From the IMG/VR virus record IMGVR_UViG_3300009285_001861: a DNA stretch of 64,000 nucleotides, one strand, 5' to 3'. Within the stretch, counting starts at the first letter, position 1. Each line of letters opens with the position of its first letter. Of the stretch, positions 2,319-61,137 are shown piece by piece. The position numbers and the translations under genes are program-made. The DNA is from an uncultured virus (IMG/VR IMGVR_UViG_3300009285_001861) (taxonomy: Duplodnaviria > Heunggongvirae > Uroviricota > Caudoviricetes). The notes beneath the pieces were generated by a model. The model ran no database searches and was not told where the DNA came from. It saw only the letters and a list, made by a program, of their open reading frames with translations.

Positions 2319-2408
2319 CTACGCACGAGTGCATAAATCCACCCCGGCACAGCTAAGCAATAGCTCTAGCTTCAGGCTCGGAATGGAGTTGGTTGCACGA
2401 TCGAACAT
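2319..2408 (-). CDS. Putative Leu-sensing leader peptide MFDRATNSIPSLKLELLLSCAGVDLCTRA
   Basis: 29-codon ORF between promoter and Leu tRNAs; Leu codons CTG, CTA, CTA, TTG, CTT, TTA. Confidence 0.75.
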   Translation of the reverse strand: MFDRATNSIPSLKLELLLSCAGVDLCTRA

Positions 2409-11500: not shown

Positions 11501-11548
11501 TTACCGGCGGCAGGTCCTATGGGGTCGATGGGGGTTCGTGGTCTTCAT
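11501..11548 (-). CDS. Putative His-sensing internal leader MKTTNPHRPHRTCRR
   Basis: Short ORF directly 5' of tRNA-His; stop inside hairpin CCGCCGG/CCGGCGG. Confidence 0.55.
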   Translation of the reverse strand: MKTTNPHRPHRTCRR

Positions 11549-11763: not shown

Positions 11764-11796
11764 TCAATAACAGTGGTGATGCAGATGCTGGTTCAT
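11764..11796 (-). CDS. Putative His/Cys/Tyr-sensing leader peptide MNQHLHHHCY
   Basis: ATG AAC CAG CAT CTG CAT CAC CAC TGT TAT TGA upstream of Tyr-Cys-His tRNAs. Confidence 0.8.
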   Translation of the reverse strand: MNQHLHHHCY

Positions 11797-13905: not shown

Positions 13906-14001
13906 TTAGGCTGCGGGCGGGGCGGCTGGACCCACGCACGCCACCACGCAAGCGGCTGTCGCCGCTGGTGCTGTGTTGGTGCTGTGGGTCGAGAGGTTCA
14001 T
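13906..14001 (-). CDS. Putative Ala/Pro-sensing leader MNLSTHSTNTAPAATAACVVACVGPAAPPAA
   Basis: 10 Ala + 4 Pro in 31 codons, between promoter and Pro-Ala tRNAs. Confidence 0.78.
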   Translation of the reverse strand: MNLSTHSTNTAPAATAACVVACVGPAAPPAA

Positions 14002-23898: not shown

Positions 23899-25056
23899 TC
23901 AATGACCATCCTTGGCATCCTTGCGTTCAAGGTAGGCGTCCGAGATGTACTTGAGGATCTTGCGGCCCTGGAAGCCAGATGCCAGCTGCTGGCCCTGATA
24001 GAAGTCCACTCTGGTCTCCGGTTCAGAGGTCACAACCACACCTTCCCGGACATGCTTAGCCCCAGGAAGGGTAGAGGCGCCGTCCCGCAATGCCTGGACA
24101 GATTCCTTGTTGAAGGGACCCCGGTATAGGACCGGGACTGTCTGAAGACCCAGGACCTCGGCCACCTTCTCAATGACCTCCCGTCCCTGGTACCGCCCAT
24201 CAACTAGAACGTCGATGATCCGGACCTGCTGCACATTGGCTTCACAGCCATAGGTCAGATCCTGAATGCCACTTCCAAAAAGCTCGGCGAAGATGATGTA
24301 GTGCTCCGTCATCGGCCATGAGCCATTATCGTTCTGGACTAAAGCACGAACCTTGTCCTCAGGAAGGAACTTGGCAGCCGCCAATGAATAGGCATTGGTT
24401 CCCTTGGGGTCCCTGGCCGTGTTGTGGGTTCCCACCATGTAGGTTGGCGTAGCCACCCCATCGGTGACCATGCCATCAACTACCAGGGCCACCCTGAAGT
24501 TGGTTCCATGAATCTTCTCGGTCACACGCACCGGATCCCCTTCCGCAAACACGTCGGGGAAGTTCTTGGCATTCTCGATGTGGGTGTAGGACTGGAATGC
24601 CCCGGGACACCGGATCATGTCTCCAGACATGTTCGAGGGGATCGGTGGCTCATACCGCTCAATCCCAAGAGCCTCTGTCCAGGTCCCCCAATGTCCCCCA
24701 AGAGGGGCAATCTCCACCCCTGTTTCGCCTGGAAGCATACCGGGCAGGGACTCGGGAACCGGGATCAGAAGACCCTGGCTCAACGCACCCCGGAGGCGGA
24801 TTGTCTTGAGCTTGTGTGCAGGGCGACCATTAGAAAGCTTCTTGGTGGCTTTGTCCTTGAGGAAATCAAAGCTGGGAAGCGACACGTCAAGCAGCGCGTC
24901 AATGGCGATGTAGATGCCCTCTCGGACATCCCCCCACTGTTCCGTCTGGGTCACGCACTGCCAATCCATCCCATCAATTGTGGCGATGGACAGCTTGTCC
25001 GCGTTCGGGTGCTTATTGAGGGTGAATTTGACTTGTCGTGCTAGTTCTGTGGCCAT
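23899..25056 (-). CDS. RNA ligase, DRB0094/Rnl5-type
   Basis: HPNADKL, IRLRGALSQGL N-terminal domain; TEKIHGTN motif I; REGVVV motif IV. Confidence 0.9.
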   Translation of the reverse strand: MATELARQVKFTLNKHPNADKLSIATIDGMDWQCVTQTEQWGDVREGIYIAIDALLDVSLPSFDFLKDKATKKLSNGRPAHKLKTIRLRGALSQGLLIPVPESLPGMLPGETGVEIAPLGGHWGTWTEALGIERYEPPIPSNMSGDMIRCPGAFQSYTHIENAKNFPDVFAEGDPVRVTEKIHGTNFRVALVVDGMVTDGVATPTYMVGTHNTARDPKGTNAYSLAAAKFLPEDKVRALVQNDNGSWPMTEHYIIFAELFGSGIQDLTYGCEANVQQVRIIDVLVDGRYQGREVIEKVAEVLGLQTVPVLYRGPFNKESVQALRDGASTLPGAKHVREGVVVTSEPETRVDFYQGQQLASGFQGRKILKYISDAYLERKDAKDGH

Positions 25057-25073
25057 GATGGGTTACCTTACTC

Positions 25074-25598
25074 TCAGACTGGGGCAGGTTCGGGGGAATA
25101 CAACAGCTCTTCGATCTTCCGGTCAAACCCCTCCCACTTCGGAATCCACACATCAAATCCCCGCTTGATCTGCTTGGCCTTGGCATACGGAAGCAAGAAG
25201 GGGGCATCCTTGTGGTAGTCAATATGCCGGATCTCAATGAAGCCCTTCTTGGCCAAGTTGTTGTGGATCCGCTTCTCCATAGGATGGACTGTTTGGTCCA
25301 GGCGGAAAGGAACAGCCTGCTGGCTGACGGTCCACTCCTGAGCATCCTCGATGGTAGGTTGCGCAATCCCTCTCCAACTCCGTACATGGATCATGGAATC
25401 AATAAGGTGGTGCCGATGCCACCCCACCATCGTGTATAGCAATAGGGCCTGAGGGTGGGTGAGGTTGAACTTAGCCCGGAGTTTGAAGAGGTCATAGCGA
25501 ATCTCCACCTCTTCCCAGGGAGGGTCGAAAGGCGGGAGCTTCTCGTAGGGCAATTGACGCGGTGGATACTTGGCGACGTACTCTTCCCAAAGGGTCAT
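25074..25598 (-). CDS. Hypothetical protein
   Basis: 174-aa ORF in operon. Confidence 0.6.
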   Translation of the reverse strand: MTLWEEYVAKYPPRQLPYEKLPPFDPPWEEVEIRYDLFKLRAKFNLTHPQALLLYTMVGWHRHHLIDSMIHVRSWRGIAQPTIEDAQEWTVSQQAVPFRLDQTVHPMEKRIHNNLAKKGFIEIRHIDYHKDAPFLLPYAKAKQIKRGFDVWIPKWEGFDRKIEELLYSPEPAPV

Positions 25599-25753
25599 GG
25601 TTGGTGTTACTCTTACAGGAGACCCTCCCGTGCCCGCACGATTTTTTTCACGGCTGCCCCGGATATCCCAAACTCCCTACCCACAGCTTCGTAGTTGTAT
25701 AGTTCGAGGTACCGCAACCGTACCGCGTCATGGTTTGATATTGAACCCACATT

Positions 25754-25827
25754 TGGTTCGTGGCGCGGGTATCGATCCCGCCTCTCTAGGGTCAAAGCCT
25801 AGCGTCTTGCCAATGGACCAGCCACGA
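25754..25827 (-). tRNA. tRNA-Gln(TTG)
   Basis: CTAGG-CTTTGAC-CCTAG; CCA. Confidence 0.87.
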
Positions 25828-25831
25828 ATAG

Positions 25832-25902
25832 TTCGCGGGCGTGGAGTCGGACCACGATACGAGGCTTCAGAGACCTCTGCTCGGCCGTTGAGCTACCCGC
25901 GA
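25832..25902 (-). tRNA. tRNA-Gln(CTG)
   Basis: GAGGT-CTCTGAA-GCCTC. Confidence 0.87.
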
Positions 25903-25929
25903 AAAACTAACAGTCAGAACCGGTTAAGG

Positions 25930-26349
25930 TCACTGCTGCTGTTGCTGGGGTTGCTGGCGGGGTTGTAGGGTGACGATCCCTAGCGTAGCGGATTTGGAGT
26001 TCGCACGGTGCCCTGCACCCAACCCCGTAAGGGAGGCATCGGTGCTGCACCAAAGTGGACCAAGGGAATTCATTGAGTGCGCCGGACCTGGATCGAACAG
26101 GTATGTCTCCCTCTTCAGGGGAGTGCATGGACCACCACTGCCACCGACGCGAACGCCAAGGCGCCGCCCGGTAAACTTGTCTGTGGATCCAGTGCTCATA
26201 GTGCGCGAGGCCGGGTACGATCCGGCGACTTCTCGATTATCGGTCGAGTATTCTTCCACTGAATTACCCGCGCATGCTGCGTCAGCTGCCATCGTCGAAG
26301 CGATGGCGCCGGTAATGCACGGGCTAGCAATGTGGAGGGAGGGGTTCAT
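25930..26349 (-). CDS. Leader/read-through ORF spanning tRNA-Ile and tRNA-Phe, ending QPRQQPQQQQQ before Gln tRNAs (internal ATGs at 26199, 26073)
   Basis: 139 open codons starting just after the promoter; Ile x3, Phe, Gln x8 each placed before the cognate tRNA. Confidence 0.7.
   Translation of the reverse strand: MNPSLHIASPCITGAIASTMAADAACAGNSVEEYSTDNREVAGSYPASRTMSTGSTDKFTGRRLGVRVGGSGGPCTPLKRETYLFDPGPAHSMNSLGPLWCSTDASLTGLGAGHRANSKSATLGIVTLQPRQQPQQQQQ
26078..26150 (-). tRNA. tRNA-Phe(GAA)
   Basis: CTCCC-CTGAAGA-GGGAG. Confidence 0.85.
26202..26273 (-). tRNA. tRNA-Ile(GAT)
   Basis: CTCGA-CCGATAA-TCGAG (C33). Confidence 0.85.
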
Positions 26350-26367
26350 GTCAGGTCACTTAGCGGA

Positions 26368-26396
26368 TGTATAGGGACTCTACCGTGGGTTGTCAA
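26368..26396 (-). promoter_or_regulatory. sigma70-type promoter of Ile-Phe-Gln operon
   Basis: TTGACA-N17-TATACA. Confidence 0.72.
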
Positions 26397-26902
26397 GGCT
26401 TGGATTCGGAATCGACAGGAATGGACGCTATGGGATGTTTTTGCAGGATCATCAGGACGGCGGTTTCACCTTCGGCAACCCACACCCAATCGTATTGGTC
26501 GCCATTGAGGGAGCCGTTGATGGCTTCCCGAGCTTGGTCCCAAGACTGATCCAGGATGACCCGGCTCTTCTCTTCACGGCTCTTCCAGGAGGAGGTTTTC
26601 CTCTTGACAAACCTGGAAAGGATAATGTAGGCCGTTCCGTAGGCTACCGCGAACACGATCAATGTGTAGGCGGCGATCCAATTGGGAGAGCCCGTTCCAA
26701 GGATGGTGGTGAGCCAGTTCATGGCGTTCCCTCGCTCGTCAGGGAGTGCCCGGATGTCATGTACCGGTAGGCCCAGCGGAGTCTTTGGACCAGGGGTAGG
26801 CCCCCTTGCTTGCTTGTTAGCTGGAAGTGTCGGTACCCGGCCACCAACATTTTCCAGGCTGAGATTCTTGATGCCATGGTTAGCTTACTCTCCAAACAGT
26901 AG

Positions 26903-26981
26903 TAGGTGGACGGGAATTGAACCCGCACGACCGGGTGGCTTTCAACCTCGCCCCGGCGCTCTATCCAACGAGCATCCACCT
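26903..26981 (-). ncRNA. tRNA-like element lacking a canonical anticodon loop
   Basis: D arm GCTC/GAGC, T arm GCGGG-TTCAATT-CCCGT, 6-bp acceptor; 16-nt insert in anticodon arm. Confidence 0.65.
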
Positions 26982-27495
26982 TGCCACCCCATTGTCACCC
27001 TGGGGGCCGGGCTCGCAAACCGTGTGGGACTCCGTCAATGGGTCAACTCGCAAACCCATTTGACTTAGACCCTTCGGCCTGACACTAAGACTTCGATTCC
27101 TCCCTGGCCTTGTCCGCTAGGTACCTCATTACCGCCCAATCCATGGTGTAGATGGGGTCCCCTTGGGCAGGGCGTTTGTCACAGTCCTCAGGAGGAAGAC
27201 CTGCCTGCATGGCCTCAATGAAGGCCCAGTTCTCATCGGTGTTGGGCATCTTGAAGTCATTGCAGCCATGGTTGCTGAATTGGTCCGCTGCCACATCCAG
27301 CATCTGGCCAACGAGTTCAAGTTCCTTCTTGGTCATGCTACAAGTTACCCCTGGCTCTGACCTTGGGGGAGGAAAAAGCGGGTCACAGGATCCTCCTGCA
27401 TCTCAGGGGGGAAGGGCTCCCACAGGCCCACCCGTGGCTTCGGTCCCCTGCATACTACTTGTACGACACCCGCAAGGTACAGTACCCAGAAAATT

Positions 27496-27570
<75 letters not shown>

Positions 27571-27574
27571 CTAG

Positions 27575-27645
27575 AGCCCGCGAAGGGAGTCGAACCCTCT
27601 CAGGCCTGCTTACGATGCAGGTGCCTTCCCCAAGGCGACACGGGC
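27575..27645 (-). tRNA. tRNA-Thr(CGT)
   Basis: CCTGC-ATCGTAA-GCAGG. Confidence 0.87.
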
Positions 27646-27650
27646 AGGGA

Positions 27651-27723
27651 AGCTGAGGATCCGACTTGAACGGACAACCCCCGCATTACAAGTGCGGTGC
27701 TCTACCAGTTGAGCTACCCCAGC
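27651..27723 (-). tRNA. tRNA-Thr(TGT)
   Basis: CCGCA-CTTGTAA-TGCGG. Confidence 0.92.
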
Positions 27724-27750
27724 AAACTACGATCAGTACAAGGCGCGTGA

Positions 27751-27807
27751 TTAACCCTTTCGGGTCAATCCGGCGGTACGTGTTCGCGTCGTGGTGAAGA
27801 ATCTCAT
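27751..27807 (-). CDS. Putative Thr-sensing leader MRFFTTTRTRTAGLTRKG
   Basis: 6 Thr codons (ACC, ACG, ACG, ACA, ACC, ACC); stop in hairpin GATTGACCC-GAAA-GGGTTAATC. Confidence 0.8.
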   Translation of the reverse strand: MRFFTTTRTRTAGLTRKG

Positions 27808-27828
27808 CGTGGTTACTCTAGAGCGGGC

Positions 27829-27857
27829 AGTATAGGGATTCCAACGGGACCTGTCAA
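27829..27857 (-). promoter_or_regulatory. sigma70-type promoter of Thr operon
   Basis: TTGACA-N17-TATACT. Confidence 0.82.
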
Positions 27858-28299
27858 GTCAGTCAAGTTACCAGGATACAAGATAGGCGGGCCAGTTGTG
27901 AACTTGGGAAGGGGTGCCGCATTTCAAACAGAACTTGCCAAACCATGGCCTCTCTGGATTCAAGTTTAGGCATTTGACCTGATCCAACGAGAGTGGTTCC
28001 AGGCGTTGACTGCGTGTACTGAAGGTATGACCTAGCAGCCAGCACCAAGTTCGTGTGCGTTTTGAGCTAGTAGGTGGGGAGGGGTGGCGATAGGGCATGG
28101 TCTCAGCCGCTTCGGCTGAAGCTCGGGATTTCCTGGCCCGCACGTAGAGCCGCAAGGGCGACCTGCATTTCCTGCTCATCATATGGATTGAACCAGCCTG
28201 TTCGGGCCATATCCTCAAGCTCTGTTTGCCAGAGCGTTCGGGTAGGAGCATCCAAGTTCTCCTCCTCGTCAAGGGCAGCCTGGATTGGTTTCCTGTCTG

Positions 28300-35103: not shown

Positions 35104-35517
35104 TCAGACAGATATTCGTCTGAGCCTAGTGCCGGTAGCGGTAACCGAAACCGCGGTGTGCTCCTTATGAGAGAGCAACCCGCCCTGTGTACCGGCATTC
35201 AGCAATGCATCGGTGCACATTCGATTTGAGGTACGAGTAGAGAGGTTCGAACTCCCGACGCGCGGGGCGTAGGCCCGCCGCTCTTCCGCTGAGCTATACT
35301 CGCGTACAAAACCTTGCTGCCCACCGCACGGGTGAGCGGGTCGCACGACGAGACCAGCAGTTGAGGTGTAGTGATTCATGGTGCATGCAGAGAGAATCGA
35401 ACTCTCATTTCGCAGATTAAGAGTCTGGCGACCTGCCGTTGGCCCATGCATGCGTGTTTGCTCCCGAGGTTTTCCCTCGGGGCAACGCTTGAGCATGGAT
35501 GTGGTCAGGTGGTTCAT
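35104..35517 (-). CDS. Leader/read-through ORF spanning tRNA-Lys, Val and CAT, ending AGG CTC AGA CGA ATA before Arg(TCT)/Ile(TAT)
   Basis: 137 open codons from the promoter-proximal ATG; cognate codons in each spacer; internal ATG at 35379. Confidence 0.72.
   Translation of the reverse strand: MNHLTTSMLKRCPEGKPREQTRMHGPTAGRQTLNLRNESSILSACTMNHYTSTAGLVVRPAHPCGGQQGFVREYSSAEERRAYAPRVGSSNLSTRTSNRMCTDALLNAGTQGGLLSHKEHTAVSVTATGTRLRRISV
35130..35196 (-). tRNA. Short tRNA with CAT anticodon (Met or Ile2), reduced D arm
   Basis: 7-bp acceptor, GCTCT-CTCATAA-GGAGC, T arm GCGGT/ACCGC; 67 nt. Confidence 0.65.
35232..35303 (-). tRNA. tRNA-Val(TAC)
   Basis: GCGGG-CCTACGC-CCCGC (C33); A73. Confidence 0.8.
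35379..35453 (-). tRNA. tRNA-Lys(CTT)
   Basis: CAGA-CTCTTAA-TCTG; CCA. Confidence 0.87.
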
Positions 35518-41406: not shown

Positions 41407-41574
41407 TTAGGATCGCGAGACTGAGAGACTACTACTCCACCACGTAGACGTGTGTCCTACGCAGCGGGTCGAGTGGGATTCAAACCCACGGACGCTTTTC
41501 AGCGCCTCCACGTTAGCAGTGTGGTGCCTTAGGTCTCTCGGCCACCGACCCAGAGTTGTTTCGAGAAGAGTCAC
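41407..41574 (-). CDS. Putative Ser-sensing leader ORF reading through tRNA-Ser(GCT), ending TSTWWSSSLSVSRS
   Basis: TCT, AGT x3, TCA, TCG, TCC in spacer; stop TAA in loop of GCGATCC/GGATCGC hairpin; GTG start uncertain. Confidence 0.55.
   Translation of the reverse strand: MTLLETTLGRWPRDLRHHTANVEALKSVRGFESHSTRCVGHTSTWWSSSLSVSRS
41465..41551 (-). tRNA. tRNA-Ser(GCT)
   Basis: CCACA-CTGCTAA-CGTGG (A31-C39); long variable arm. Confidence 0.87.
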
Positions 41575-49004: not shown

Positions 49005-49076
49005 AGCGGGAGAGGGAGCTCGAATCCCCGACCTGTGCGATGGCGACGCACCGCTCTACCACTGAGCTACTCCCGC
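49005..49076 (-). tRNA. tRNA-Gly(GCC)
   Basis: GTGCG-TCGCCAT-CGCAC (C33); U73. Confidence 0.88.
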
Positions 49077-49138
49077 ATATTGGTACGCGCGCTCCGCGCT
49101 GCGGTACCTTCGGGATGTTGTCGTTCTGTGGTTTTCAT
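49067..49138 (-). CDS. Putative internal leader MKTTERQHPEGTAARSARTNMRE before Gly tRNAs
   Basis: Single GGT codon in a hairpin arm pairing with the tRNA 5' end; stop inside the tRNA. Confidence 0.45.
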   Translation of the reverse strand: MKTTERQHPEGTAARSARTNMRE

Positions 49139-49423: not shown

Positions 49424-49534
49424 TCAGGTGGTTGGCCTAATACGCCGTCGTCGCTGCACACGCCCGCAACCTCGCGCCAGCGTTCCGCCGTCACGTCCGT
49501 GGGTTGTCGTCTTGGTGTACATCGAGAAGCTCAT
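49424..49534 (-). CDS. Putative Arg/Gly-sensing leader MSFSMYTKTTTHGRDGGTLARGCGRVQRRRRIRPTT
   Basis: 8 Arg (CGT, CGA, CGG, AGG) + 5 Gly codons in 36. Confidence 0.78.
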   Translation of the reverse strand: MSFSMYTKTTTHGRDGGTLARGCGRVQRRRRIRPTT

Positions 49535-58514: not shown

Positions 58515-58571
58515 TTATGTGCGTTCGGAATCCGATTCGCGCTCTCGCTCTGATGTCGTGTAGGAGTTCAT
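58515..58571 (-). CDS. Putative Glu/Asp-sensing leader MNSYTTSERERESDSERT
   Basis: GAG, GAG, GAA, GAT, GAA; stop at apex of ACGCAC/GTGCGT hairpin. Confidence 0.78.
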   Translation of the reverse strand: MNSYTTSERERESDSERT

Positions 58572-59352: not shown

Positions 59353-60438
59353 ATGTTCCCACTATACACCCCTGAAGCGTTCCAGGCAGCAAAATCTTTC
59401 ACCTTACTACCCCTGAAGTGTCAACAGTGCCCCACCACCATCTATCGGACCAAGAAGGCTCTTAAGTACGCAATCCTGAAAGGCAAGGAGAAATTCTTTT
59501 GCCCCAAGTGCCTTCCCCAATCCCAGGTGTCATCCATCGAGGTAGCCTGCCTGACTTGCGGGGTCAAGTTCTTGAAGCGGGCATCCCAATGTAAGAAAAC
59601 CCCCAATCACTTTTGTAGTCGGTCCTGTGCAGTGAAGACCAACAATGTCAAGACCCCCAAGAGGAAGGTTGAGGGCTCCTGTCGAACCTGTCAGAAGCCT
59701 ACACATACCAAAGACCGGTATTGCTCGGATTCCTGTAAGGAGGTGGCCCGTCAAATCTGGGAGGCGGAACGGGAGCTAGAGTGGCAGAAGCCCCCCGTCA
59801 AGGTCAAGGGACCCCGTAAGCCTAGGGCGAGTAGTGGATACAAGAAGATTGGAAGGTCCCCAGCACAAAAGCGGGAGGACGGGAAGGCAGGGGTTGTGGC
59901 CTGGAGGCAACGCACCAAGCTCAAAGCCATTGAGTACAAGGGAGGATGCTGCCAAACATGCGGGTACCGGAAATGTGTATGGGCTCTCTCTTTCCACCAT
60001 GTGGACCCCTCACAGAAGGACTTTGGCATTGGTGGTCGGAATCTTAAGTCCTGGGCCCGTATTCAGGTGGAGTTGGACAAGTGTGTCCTAATTTGTAGTA
60101 ACTGTCATGCAGAAGTCCATGATGCCCTGGACAGCACCCCTGATGCTAAGGCCCATTGGAGGAAACGCCTCAAGATTAAGGCCATTGAGTACAAAGGAGG
60201 TCATTGTTGCCTTTGCGGGTACCACAACTGCAACAGGGCATTGAGTTTTCACCATTTGGACCCGTCCCAAAAGGACTTCAACATCTCCAGGGTTAGTAGA
60301 ACCTGGGAAAGCATACAACCGGAGTTGGATAAGTGTGTCCTACTCTGCATGAACTGCCATGGGGAAGTTCATGCTGGCACTGCTATTTTAGACTCGATGG
60401 TAGACCGTACTGGAATCGAACCAGTTTCTACGGGTTAA
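59353..60438 (+). CDS. Free-standing homing endonuclease with two tandem HNH domains
   Basis: Two copies of KAIEYKGG.C..CGY...LSFHH.DPSQKDF...ELDKCVL.C.NCH.EVH; N-terminal FCSRSC/YCSDSC zinc fingers. Confidence 0.9.
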   Translation: MFPLYTPEAFQAAKSFTLLPLKCQQCPTTIYRTKKALKYAILKGKEKFFCPKCLPQSQVSSIEVACLTCGVKFLKRASQCKKTPNHFCSRSCAVKTNNVKTPKRKVEGSCRTCQKPTHTKDRYCSDSCKEVARQIWEAERELEWQKPPVKVKGPRKPRASSGYKKIGRSPAQKREDGKAGVVAWRQRTKLKAIEYKGGCCQTCGYRKCVWALSFHHVDPSQKDFGIGGRNLKSWARIQVELDKCVLICSNCHAEVHDALDSTPDAKAHWRKRLKIKAIEYKGGHCCLCGYHNCNRALSFHHLDPSQKDFNISRVSRTWESIQPELDKCVLLCMNCHGEVHAGTAILDSMVDRTGIEPVSTG

Positions 60439-60472
60439 AAGCCACGCTGCCCAACCAATAGGCCAACGGTCC
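60398..60472 (-). tRNA. tRNA-Lys(TTT)
   Basis: Loop CTTTTAA; bulged anticodon stem; CCA. Confidence 0.82.
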
Positions 60473-60523
60473 TCAATTGGAGGCGTCGGCGGGTTTGAGT
60501 CGAAGTGAGAAGGAAAACGTCAT
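60473..60523 (-). CDS. Putative internal leader MTFSFSLRLKPADASN before tRNA-Lys(TTT)
   Basis: GAGGT RBS; AAA codon within CTCAA/TTGAG stem; stop abuts tRNA +1. Confidence 0.5.
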   Translation of the reverse strand: MTFSFSLRLKPADASN

Positions 60524-60534
60524 TTGGACCTCAG

Positions 60535-60608
60535 CTCCGTGGGCAGGGATCGCACCTGCTCAATAGGCAGTTTAACAAACTGCTGCCGTCCTATTTGGCT
60601 ACCACGGA
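60535..60608 (-). tRNA. tRNA-Asn(GTT)
   Basis: GCAGT-TTGTTAA-ACTGC; G73; atypical T loop TGCGATC. Confidence 0.85.
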
Positions 60609-60633
60609 AAACACGAATGCACGGCTGCCAACG

Positions 60634-60684
60634 CTAGGCGTTGGCGTTCCGATTCAGTGTTCCAGGTTTCAAGAGGGCGTACAT
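60634..60684 (-). CDS. Putative Asn/Lys-sensing leader MYALLKPGTLNRNANA
   Basis: AAA, AAT, AAC, AAC; stop at apex of GCCAACGC/GCGTTGGC hairpin. Confidence 0.72.
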   Translation of the reverse strand: MYALLKPGTLNRNANA

Positions 60685-60917: not shown

Positions 60918-60996
60918 TGGTAACGGGAGCAGGATTTGAACCTGCGATCTCCAGCGTATGAAGCTGGCGGGTTGAACCAGACTACCCCATCCCGCA
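60918..60996 (-). tRNA. tRNA-Met(CAT), initiator-like
   Basis: U1xU72 mismatch, purine11-pyrimidine24, CCAGC-TTCATAC-GCTGG; lacks the three G-C pairs. Confidence 0.82.
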
Positions 60997-61137
60997 ATAA
61001 GTCCGGGGATTGTGGCCCTGGTTGGACCCGCAACCCCGGTCCCAACGATGACTGCCCATCGTTGGACCCCTGCCCGACCTGTAGCCTCCTGTGAAGCTAC
61101 CTTGAGTAATCAGTTCAAGTGCCGGACCGATCAATTC

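What the first reader, a model, noticed from the sequence alone, without database searches (positions are those of the whole stretch)
25754..26396. One open frame runs through tRNA-Ile and tRNA-Phe and ends in poly-Gln before two Gln tRNAs
The 139-codon ORF starts 18 nt after the -10 box. It has ATT/ATT/ATC before Ile(GAT), TTT before Phe, and 8 CAA/CAG before Gln(CTG/TTG). In-frame ATGs follow each tRNA 3' end (26199, 26073), so each processed fragment could re-initiate. Inference: the pre-tRNA doubles as mRNA; an elongating ribosome unfolds tRNAs unless it stalls just upstream.
Basis: partly seen in the sequence, partly recalled or inferred. Interest (0 to 1): 0.82.

Follow-up and report, generated by a model that had tools for sequence, protein, structure and literature searches.

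The report
Ribosome-read chain of phage tRNA genes
A giant uncultured phage keeps one stop-free reading frame running through several tRNA genes, with a codon for each tRNA placed just before it, so ribosomes probably read the precursor RNA and let a tRNA be released only when its own codon is read slowly.

Summary
The 139-codon frame (26349-25930, minus) crosses three tRNAs: Ile, Phe and a missed, odd tRNA-Trp(CCA) with TGG before it. It stops after a Gln run, ahead of two tRNA-Gln. It is one of 18 codon-matched leader units in this window; a second chain crosses Lys-Val-CAT before Arg. A complete, only distantly related 191 kb phage (G021) keeps the orthologous Ile-Phe-Trp-Gln frame open, with aligned sensor codons shifted by 9, 12 and 6 nt. 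Other phages keep frames of 277 and 185 codons through 6 and 4 tRNAs. In one pair, indels are multiples of three and substitutions ignore codon position, so the frame is selected, not the peptide. A blind test finds the cognate codon 6 nt before a hairpin in 12 of 22 units (3.2 expected). Best model (0.55): a paused ribosome masks the strand that blocks tRNA folding, allowing processing; a running ribosome passes through. Terminal stop-type modules may attenuate transcription. There are no expression data. I found no paper on this; this scan noted codon-matched phage tRNA leaders before on other DNA, and one single-tRNA read-through.

The parts
26368..26396 (-). sigma70-type promoter TTGACA-17-TATACA; -35 overlaps the stop codon of the upstream 109-aa ORF
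   Evidence: sequence; same layout before Leu, Pro, Thr, Lys, Glu leaders; not listed by the scanner
25930..26349 (-). 139-codon read-through frame over tRNA-Ile, -Phe, -Trp; no Pfam match; no Shine-Dalgarno seen
   Evidence: 5 and 4 stops in the other two frames
26302..26331 (-). Ile codons ATT (26331), ATT (26316, the conserved one, 40 nt before tRNA-Ile), ATC (26304)
   Evidence: ATT ACC kept in G010, G018, G021
26288..26307 (-). 7-bp GC-rich inner hairpin starting 6 nt after the conserved ATT
   Evidence: stem kept with changed pairs in G010, G018, G021
26201..26273 (-). tRNA-Ile(GAU)
26173..26199 (-). Phe module: in-frame ATG (26199) just after tRNA-Ile, TTT (26175) 22 nt before tRNA-Phe; downstream strand pairs with the tRNA 5' strand in the fold
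   Evidence: both kept in G021
26077..26150 (-). tRNA-Phe(GAA)
26050..26073 (-). Trp module: in-frame ATG (26073), TGG (26052) 23 nt before tRNA-Trp
   Evidence: TGG at 23 nt in G021, which has no ATG before it in this spacer
25955..26026 (-). degenerate tRNA-Trp(CCA): 7-bp acceptor stem, shrunken D arm, encoded CCA end
   Evidence: (relaxed ARAGORN); same odd tRNA in G021
25930..25965 (-). Gln run (8 CAA/CAG in 11 codons) and TGA; no ATG of its own
   Evidence: four Gln codons then TGA in the same place in G010, G014, G018; three Gln codons in G021
25903..25943 (-). hairpin whose 5' arm is the Gln codons, followed by AGUUUU(U); possible weak terminator
   Evidence: not called by the terminator scan
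25831..25902 (-). tRNA-Gln(CUG)
25754..25827 (-). tRNA-Gln(UUG)
35104..35517 (-). second read-through chain, 137 codons: AAG before Lys(CUU), GTC GTG before Val, ATG before a degenerate CAU tRNA, AGG/AGA/CGA before Arg(UCU)
   Evidence: 119-codon counterpart in G021
41407..41574 (-). frame through tRNA-Ser(GCU) into a Ser-rich tract before Ser(CGA); GTG start uncertain
   Evidence: ATG-started counterpart in G021
27751..27807 (-). sister leader before Thr x3 (ACC, ACG, ACA codons)
2319..2408 (-). sister leader before Leu x5 (CTG, CTA, TTG, CTT codons)
11764..11796 (-). sister leader MNQHLHHHCY before Tyr, Cys, His; a second His leader at 11501-11548
13906..14001 (-). sister leader rich in Ala and Pro before tRNA-Pro and -Ala
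49424..49534 (-). sister leader rich in Arg and Gly before Arg x3 and Gly x2; Gly leader at 49067-49138
58515..58571 (-). sister leader rich in Glu and Asp before Glu, Asp, Glu
60473..60684 (-). sister leaders before tRNA-Asn (60634-60684) and tRNA-Lys(UUU) (60473-60523)

Best explanation
The tRNA precursor is also a regulatory mRNA that gates tRNA maturation codon by codon. Shown from sequence: one frame carries a codon for each tRNA at a fixed place before it (about 40 nt with an inner hairpin starting 6 nt after the codon, or 21-23 nt with a strand that pairs to the tRNA 5' end). Inferred: with no ribosome there, the codon and the next bases pair with the linker or 5' strand of the tRNA, so RNase P cannot act. 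If the cognate aminoacyl-tRNA is plentiful, the ribosome runs on, melts the tRNA and reaches the next sensor. If it is scarce, the ribosome dwells, hides that strand, the tRNA folds and is cut out. The stop-free frame delivers ribosomes to later sensors; in-frame ATGs re-supply them after an upstream cut. The last module (Gln), where the frame stops inside a hairpin and one leader serves two tRNAs, probably acts on transcription. Odds by step: cognate-codon sensing about 0.92; selected read-through of tRNA bodies about 0.85; processing as the output about 0.55.
For: Codon match: 114 cognate codons in 31 hand-defined leader units against 33.8+-7.1 with permuted labels, 0 of 100000; 36 and 30 in the two shifted frames. 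Blind rule (cognate triplet 6 nt before a hairpin, no frame assumed): window 12 of 22 against 3.2 (0 of 20000), G010+G018+G011 13 of 30 against 5.3, background arrays 29 of 138 against 25.3; G021 8 of 18 against 3.4, or 7 of 17 without the module used to find it. Codon ends 39-40 nt before the tRNA in 8 of 20 and 10 of 29 units. Orthologous cluster in G021 open, aligned sensor motifs shifted by 9, 12, -6 nt; G021 has only a 23% portal match and no match to the other head-region protein tried. Frames of 277 and 234 codons: 5 and 10 of 20000 shuffles stop-free; 0 of 502 277-codon stretches in background arrays. G010 against G018: net indels 54, 6 and 3 nt inside frames, mostly 1-2 nt outside; substitutions 24/20/24 by codon position. 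Fold penalty for the processable state: naked 4.7, stalled 2.2, shuffled upstream 3.4 kcal/mol (35 units, naked above shuffled in 23, p=0.0045); G021 7.1, 3.3, 4.0 (15 units, 11, p=0.004). The hairpin starts 12 nt after the first P-site base by my count, the edge of the mRNA channel, where two stem-loops hinder A-site tRNA binding (PMC7282821, passages). Logic: termination cannot be the off state at Ile, Phe or Trp without also silencing every later sensor.
Against: No RNA, Ribo-seq or host data. Whole-leader tests were not significant: own against swapped or shuffled leaders p=0.16-0.42. In the window the Trp (1.8 naked, 2.3 stalled), Gln (2.2, 1.8) and Thr (0.2, 0.4) modules show almost no switch, and Phe keeps 4.7 when stalled. 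Units were drawn by hand after seeing the data, and the 35 units include related genomes. A cruder blind test gave only z 2.2, 2.6 and 1.6, with background up to 1.5. The background shows a slight excess at 39-40 nt (22 of 131 against 15.3). In G021 the offset signal spreads over 3-8 nt. G010 tRNA-Cys has no in-frame Cys codon in its spacer; window Ser(GCU), Ser(GGA/UGA) and Met have no clear sensor. Surviving 68 random substitutions without a stop has p=0.14. Pausing by stem-loops needs a specific length and structure (PMC8861025, abstract), untested for these 7-bp stems. Folding ignores modifications and kinetics.
Confidence: 0.55

Rival explanations
1. Every module is a transcription attenuator (intrinsic without a U-tract, or Rho-dependent); the read-through frame only keeps ribosome and polymerase coupled.
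For: In stop-type leaders the stop lies in or at the inner hairpin and one leader carries codons for all tRNAs of a block. Several end in U-rich tails; the G011 Gln/Tyr leader is a long hairpin plus five U.
Against: No terminator called on the minus strand of 25500-28100. Linkers before Ile, Phe and Trp are not U-rich. Termination at the first module would hide all later sensors.
Confidence: 0.2
2. The paused ribosome controls RNA decay or acts as a folding chaperone rather than gating RNase P; the sign could even be reversed.
For: Long imperfect stems could be nuclease targets (inference). Several modules show little predicted block of the acceptor stem.
Against: Leader-to-tRNA pairing is kept through sequence change for Ile, Phe and Lys in G021 and ends at or inside the tRNA 5' end.
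Confidence: 0.17
3. The 139-aa product is a functional protein overlapping tRNA genes.
For: The frame is open in relatives.
Against: Substitutions even across codon positions (24/20/24; 60/44/59, on a gapped alignment); lengths 130-277 aa with different tRNA content; no Pfam match; only a weak local match between the window and G010 products.
Confidence: 0.03
4. Chance: a GC-rich stretch without stops; separate leaders happen to fall in frame.
For: tRNA frames are open 47% of the time; 3 of 291 background stretches of 139 codons are stop-free.
Against: Two such chains in this window, both kept in G021; 234- and 277-codon frames; sensor codons without their own start; frame-keeping indels.
Confidence: 0.03

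Closest known systems
Leader-peptide transcription attenuators (trpL, hisL, thrL, ilvL, pheM-pheST); features recalled, not from a call
   Same: Short upstream frame with cognate codons; codons sit in one arm of a hairpin; multivalent leaders for multi-tRNA blocks.
   Different: Targets are tRNA genes; single codons at a fixed distance serve as sensors; the frame does not stop before the target but runs through 3-6 tRNAs; no terminator and antiterminator pair seen at Ile, Phe or Trp.
Translational attenuation (ermC, cat) and translation-dependent mRNA processing (daa operon); recalled
   Same: A stalled ribosome masks one strand and frees a downstream site.
   Different: The trigger here would be cognate tRNA supply and the freed site a tRNA 5' end, not a ribosome-binding site.
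Stem-loops that pause the ribosome (dnaX, HIV frameshift stems; PMC7282821, passages seen)
   Same: Hairpin placed 11-12 nt after the first P-site base, at the channel entry.
   Different: No slippery site or frameshift seen here; stems are shorter; the effect is untested.
T-box riboswitch; tmRNA
   Same: tRNA-charging sensor; RNA with both tRNA and mRNA roles.
   Different: No Rfam T-box match in 25000-28000; no tmRNA called in the genome.

Membership tests
Classical leader-peptide transcription attenuator | Upstream short frame with codons for the sensed amino acid | tested here: met
Classical leader-peptide transcription attenuator | Leader frame ends before the regulated gene | tested here: not met
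   frame crosses tRNA-Ile, -Phe, -Trp; met only for the Gln module
Classical leader-peptide transcription attenuator | Intrinsic terminator with U-tract, exclusive with an antiterminator | tested here: not met
   none called on the minus strand; linkers before Ile, Phe, Trp not U-rich; Gln module ambiguous
Classical leader-peptide transcription attenuator | Regulates amino-acid synthesis or synthetase genes | tested here: not met
   downstream genes are tRNAs
Classical leader-peptide transcription attenuator | Output changes with ribosome stalling | not testable with these tools
   needs expression or reporter data
Ribosome-pausing stem-loop (dnaX/HIV type) | Stem starts 11-12 nt after the first P-site base | tested here: met
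   offset 6 nt after the A-site codon
Ribosome-pausing stem-loop (dnaX/HIV type) | Stem length and loop able to inhibit A-site binding | not testable with these tools
   requirement stated in the abstract of PMC8861025
T-box riboswitch | Stem I specifier loop and T-box antiterminator | tested here: not met
   no match up to E=1 in 25000-28000
tmRNA | tRNA-like ends enclosing a tag frame | tested here: not met
   ARAGORN with tmRNA search reported none in G000

The most novel reading that the evidence does not exclude
A polycistronic pre-tRNA is obligately scanned by ribosomes, and each tRNA is excised only when the ribosome pauses on that tRNA's own codon: a codon-by-codon feedback loop acting on tRNA processing, portable between phage families with the tRNA array, and able to refill exactly the tRNA species that a host anticodon nuclease or heavy phage translation has drained.
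Probability: 0.5. Interest if true: 0.93.

Novelty: categorically new. Interest (0 to 1): 0.86.

Why it matters
Why phages carry tRNAs, and when they make them, is an open question. This array implies demand-driven supply for nearly every amino acid and gives precise, cheap tests: single codons at fixed distances. Translation through tRNA bodies as a control, with processing as the likely output, is not something my paper searches found (open-licence full texts only, supplements not seen). The sensing half is borrowed from attenuation. The novelty call rests on the read-through chain (well supported) and the processing output (inferred, about even odds); if the output proves to be termination, this drops to a new variant of attenuation. 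The module grammar could also serve as a small sensor of tRNA charging.

Tried and rejected
Relatives: blastn against deposited phages found only the record itself and short tRNA-Ile matches. The adjacent RNA ligase found no confirmed locus in viral contigs. A promoter-plus-start pattern gave tRNAs in 7 of 120 loci, and none of the 4 inspected (L068, L126, L134, L136) showed a clear leader. Ile and Val leader patterns hit only G010. The bacterial and archaeal genome scan gave 1 cognate of 31 tRNA hits, chance level, for that one hairpin type only. The Asn pattern gave 3 tRNA hits of 45: G018, G014, G021; it contained the codon, so it is not blind for that module. Head-gene relatives G003-G006 and G016 have tRNA arrays without the system, apart from a Lys(UUU) leader in G003-G005 and perhaps G016; G001 and G002 hold one tRNA each in the contig. 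Sequencing runs: no RNA holder listed. Anti-tRNA pairing by whole leaders: not significant. Peptide function, T-box and tmRNA rejected as above. Host not determined. Papers: PMC7282821 and PMC7162821 seen as search passages (the latter has 0 occurrences of 'leader' in its main text); PMC8861025 abstract and outline; all others as search listings only.

Full report
Setting. The window lies in a 485,040-base single-contig virus record, G000, 55% G+C, identical over the tested 751 bases to LR745208.1, an uncultured phage. It holds 34 ARAGORN tRNA genes, all on the minus strand, in small blocks. The host is unknown.

Observation. The frame's only TGG sits 23 nt before it. The order is ATT-Ile, ATG-TTT-Phe, ATG-TGG-Trp, Gln run-stop-Gln-Gln. 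Taken alone the open frame is weak evidence: 255 of 20000 shuffles and 3 of 291 background stretches.

A genome-wide system. Most other tRNA blocks have a short upstream frame in the matching amino acids, for example His/Cys/Tyr before Tyr-Cys-His, Glu/Asp before Glu-Asp-Glu, Ala/Pro before Pro-Ala, Arg/Gly before Arg-Gly. The match extends to isoacceptors: AAG before Lys(CUU) and AAA before Lys(UUU); ACC, ACG and ACA before three Thr; four of five Leu types. A second chain of 137 codons crosses Lys, Val and a degenerate CAU tRNA and stops before Arg. Over 17 window and 14 G010 units drawn by hand there are 114 cognate codons in 576, against 33.8+-7.1 with permuted labels; 30 of 31 units have at least one. 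An Asn unit was added later, making 18 in the window. Misses: Ser(GCU), Ser(GGA/UGA), Met, and two tRNAs outside the window.

Fixed geometry. A GC-rich hairpin tends to start 6 nt after the cognate codon. Tested blind on all tRNAs with at least 30 nt upstream and no frame assumed, this holds in 12 of 22 window units (3.2 expected, 0 of 20000), 13 of 30 units of G010, G018 and G011 (5.3), and 29 of 138 background units (25.3). Offsets 7, 8 and 10 also score, partly because inner stem positions count. The long module is codon, 6 nt, a stem-loop of about 20 nt, a 13-14 nt linker, then the tRNA (39-40 nt; 8 of 20 and 10 of 29 units, background 22 of 131 against 15.3). The short module (Phe, Trp, Lys(UUU); 21-27 nt) pairs directly with the tRNA 5' strand or D arm. 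With the codon in the A site the hairpin begins at the edge of the mRNA channel, which holds 11 nt after the first P-site base; dnaX and HIV stems placed 11-12 nt downstream hinder A-site tRNA binding (PMC7282821). This could explain how one codon is enough, but such pausing needs a specific stem length and structure (PMC8861025 abstract).

Conservation of the read-through. G010, a head-gene relative (portal 73%), has a 277-codon frame through Ile, Gly, Gly, Cys, Asn and Trp that ends in four Gln codons before two tRNA-Gln. G018 has a 185-codon version and a separate Trp-to-Gln frame; G014 repeats the G018 Asn-Trp-Gln part and counts as the same lineage. Between G010 and G018 net indels inside the frames are 54, 6 and 3 nt, those outside are mostly 1-2 nt, and substitutions fall 24/20/24 on codon positions. 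G011 reads through tRNA-Asn into Gln and Tyr codons before tRNA-Gln and -Tyr. G021, a complete 191 kb phage with only a 23% portal match, has the orthologous Ile-Phe-Trp-Gln-Gln cluster, including the odd tRNA-Trp, at roughly 60% DNA identity. Its frame is open for 234 codons from the Thr leader through Thr x3, Ile, Phe and Trp. The aligned sensor motifs are shifted by 9, 12 and -6 nt; three multiples of three would be 1 in 27 by chance. G021 also keeps the Lys-Val-CAU-Arg and Ser-Ser chains. Sensor codons with no start of their own (Gln in the window, G010, G018 and G021; Trp in G021; both Gly and Lys(CUU) in G010; Gln/Tyr in G011) can be read only by a ribosome that has crossed the tRNA upstream. 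These are about three independent lineages, not six. Five other head-gene relatives lack the system, so it is patchy; movement with the tRNA array is an inference, not tested on a tree.

Mechanism. I computed the cost of reaching a state with the acceptor stem formed and 5 leader bases free. Against whole swapped or shuffled leaders there was no significant effect. With the test focused on the region a paused ribosome would hide, the cost was 4.7 kcal/mol naked, 2.2 masked and 3.4 with that region shuffled (35 units, p=0.0045), and 7.1, 3.3 and 4.0 in G021, analysed afterwards with the same protocol (15 units, p=0.004). For this locus the Ile module fits well (8.0, 3.8; 0 of 20 shuffles as high), Phe partly (7.7, 4.7), Trp and Gln poorly; the G021 counterparts give 6.9/2.4, 17.8/8.1, 8.9/3.6 and 5.0/1.4. 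Two classes follow. In read-through modules transcription must continue, so the off state has to be post-transcriptional; blocked 5' processing is the simplest reading (RNase P needing a folded acceptor stem and a free leader is established knowledge, recalled). In stop-type modules one leader serves several tRNAs and the stop lies in or at the hairpin, which fits termination better, although the scan called no terminator here. Re-initiation at 26199 and 26073 is plausible, since the promoter-proximal leaders also have very short 5' ends with no Shine-Dalgarno visible, but it is untested. A role against tRNA-cleaving defences is inference; an RNA ligase gene lies next to the cluster, and RtcB and further ligases elsewhere.

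Comparison. It works like ribosome-mediated attenuation but fails three defining features of that family (see membership tests). Eight literature searches found no description; subscription papers and supplements were out of reach. This scan's own notes list codon-matched leaders before phage tRNAs in several other genomes and one frame through a single tRNA-Pro. These are unchecked AI notes on other DNA, seen after my reading was formed, and are not counted as support.

Verdict. A real, selected and conserved feature; sensing is very likely, read-through likely, the processing output about even. Interest 0.86.

Noticed in passing
window 26905-26980 (-): tRNA-like element with acceptor and T arms but an extended, bulged anticodon arm; weak Rfam tRNA-Sec match (25.3 bits, cut-off 47); no clear leader.
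   Followed up: partly
window 35127-35196 (-): Degenerate CAU-anticodon tRNA inside the second chain, called only at relaxed threshold; counterpart in G021.
   Followed up: partly
window 60398-60608 (-): tRNA-Asn (60534-60608) missed at default threshold, and a tRNA-Lys(UUU) with a bulged anticodon stem called '???'; both have leaders.
   Followed up: yes
G000:C1:222464-222540 (-), outside the window: tRNA with UUA anticodon, called tRNA-Stop by ARAGORN: a possible ochre suppressor.
   Followed up: no
window 60918-61070 (-): The tRNA-Met has an upstream ATG (61059) inside a 9-bp hairpin arm, with a frame running into the tRNA; possibly an initiation sensor.
   Followed up: no
window 23899-25056 (-); L009, L015, L019: RNA-repair set: RNA ligase next to the cluster, a second RNA ligase, RtcB, a 2'-5' ligase-like domain and RlaP.
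   Followed up: no
window 25613-25795 (-): Small helix-turn-helix-like remnant (weak Sigma70_r4 match) right after tRNA-Gln(UUG), similar to the C-terminus of a longer ORF in the G010 array.
   Followed up: partly
L180, L181, L182, L350 (G003-G005, G016): Relatives without the full system keep an AAA codon about 17-24 nt before tRNA-Lys(UUU), mostly in a short ATG frame; may be the ancestral module.
   Followed up: partly
L180, L181, L182 spacers: A recurring short motif (GGGA-C/G-TACA) in several spacers of the G003-G005 tRNA arrays; unexplained.
   Followed up: no
L349 (G018), between tRNA-Cys and tRNA-Asn: Old Asn module with a broken tRNA 5' remnant, followed by a new tRNA-Asn whose leader has an unrelated hairpin but the same codon-6 nt-stem layout.
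   Followed up: partly
L016:6748-7788: Volactin-family (actin-like) gene, PF25216; one distant match among deposited phages.
   Followed up: no
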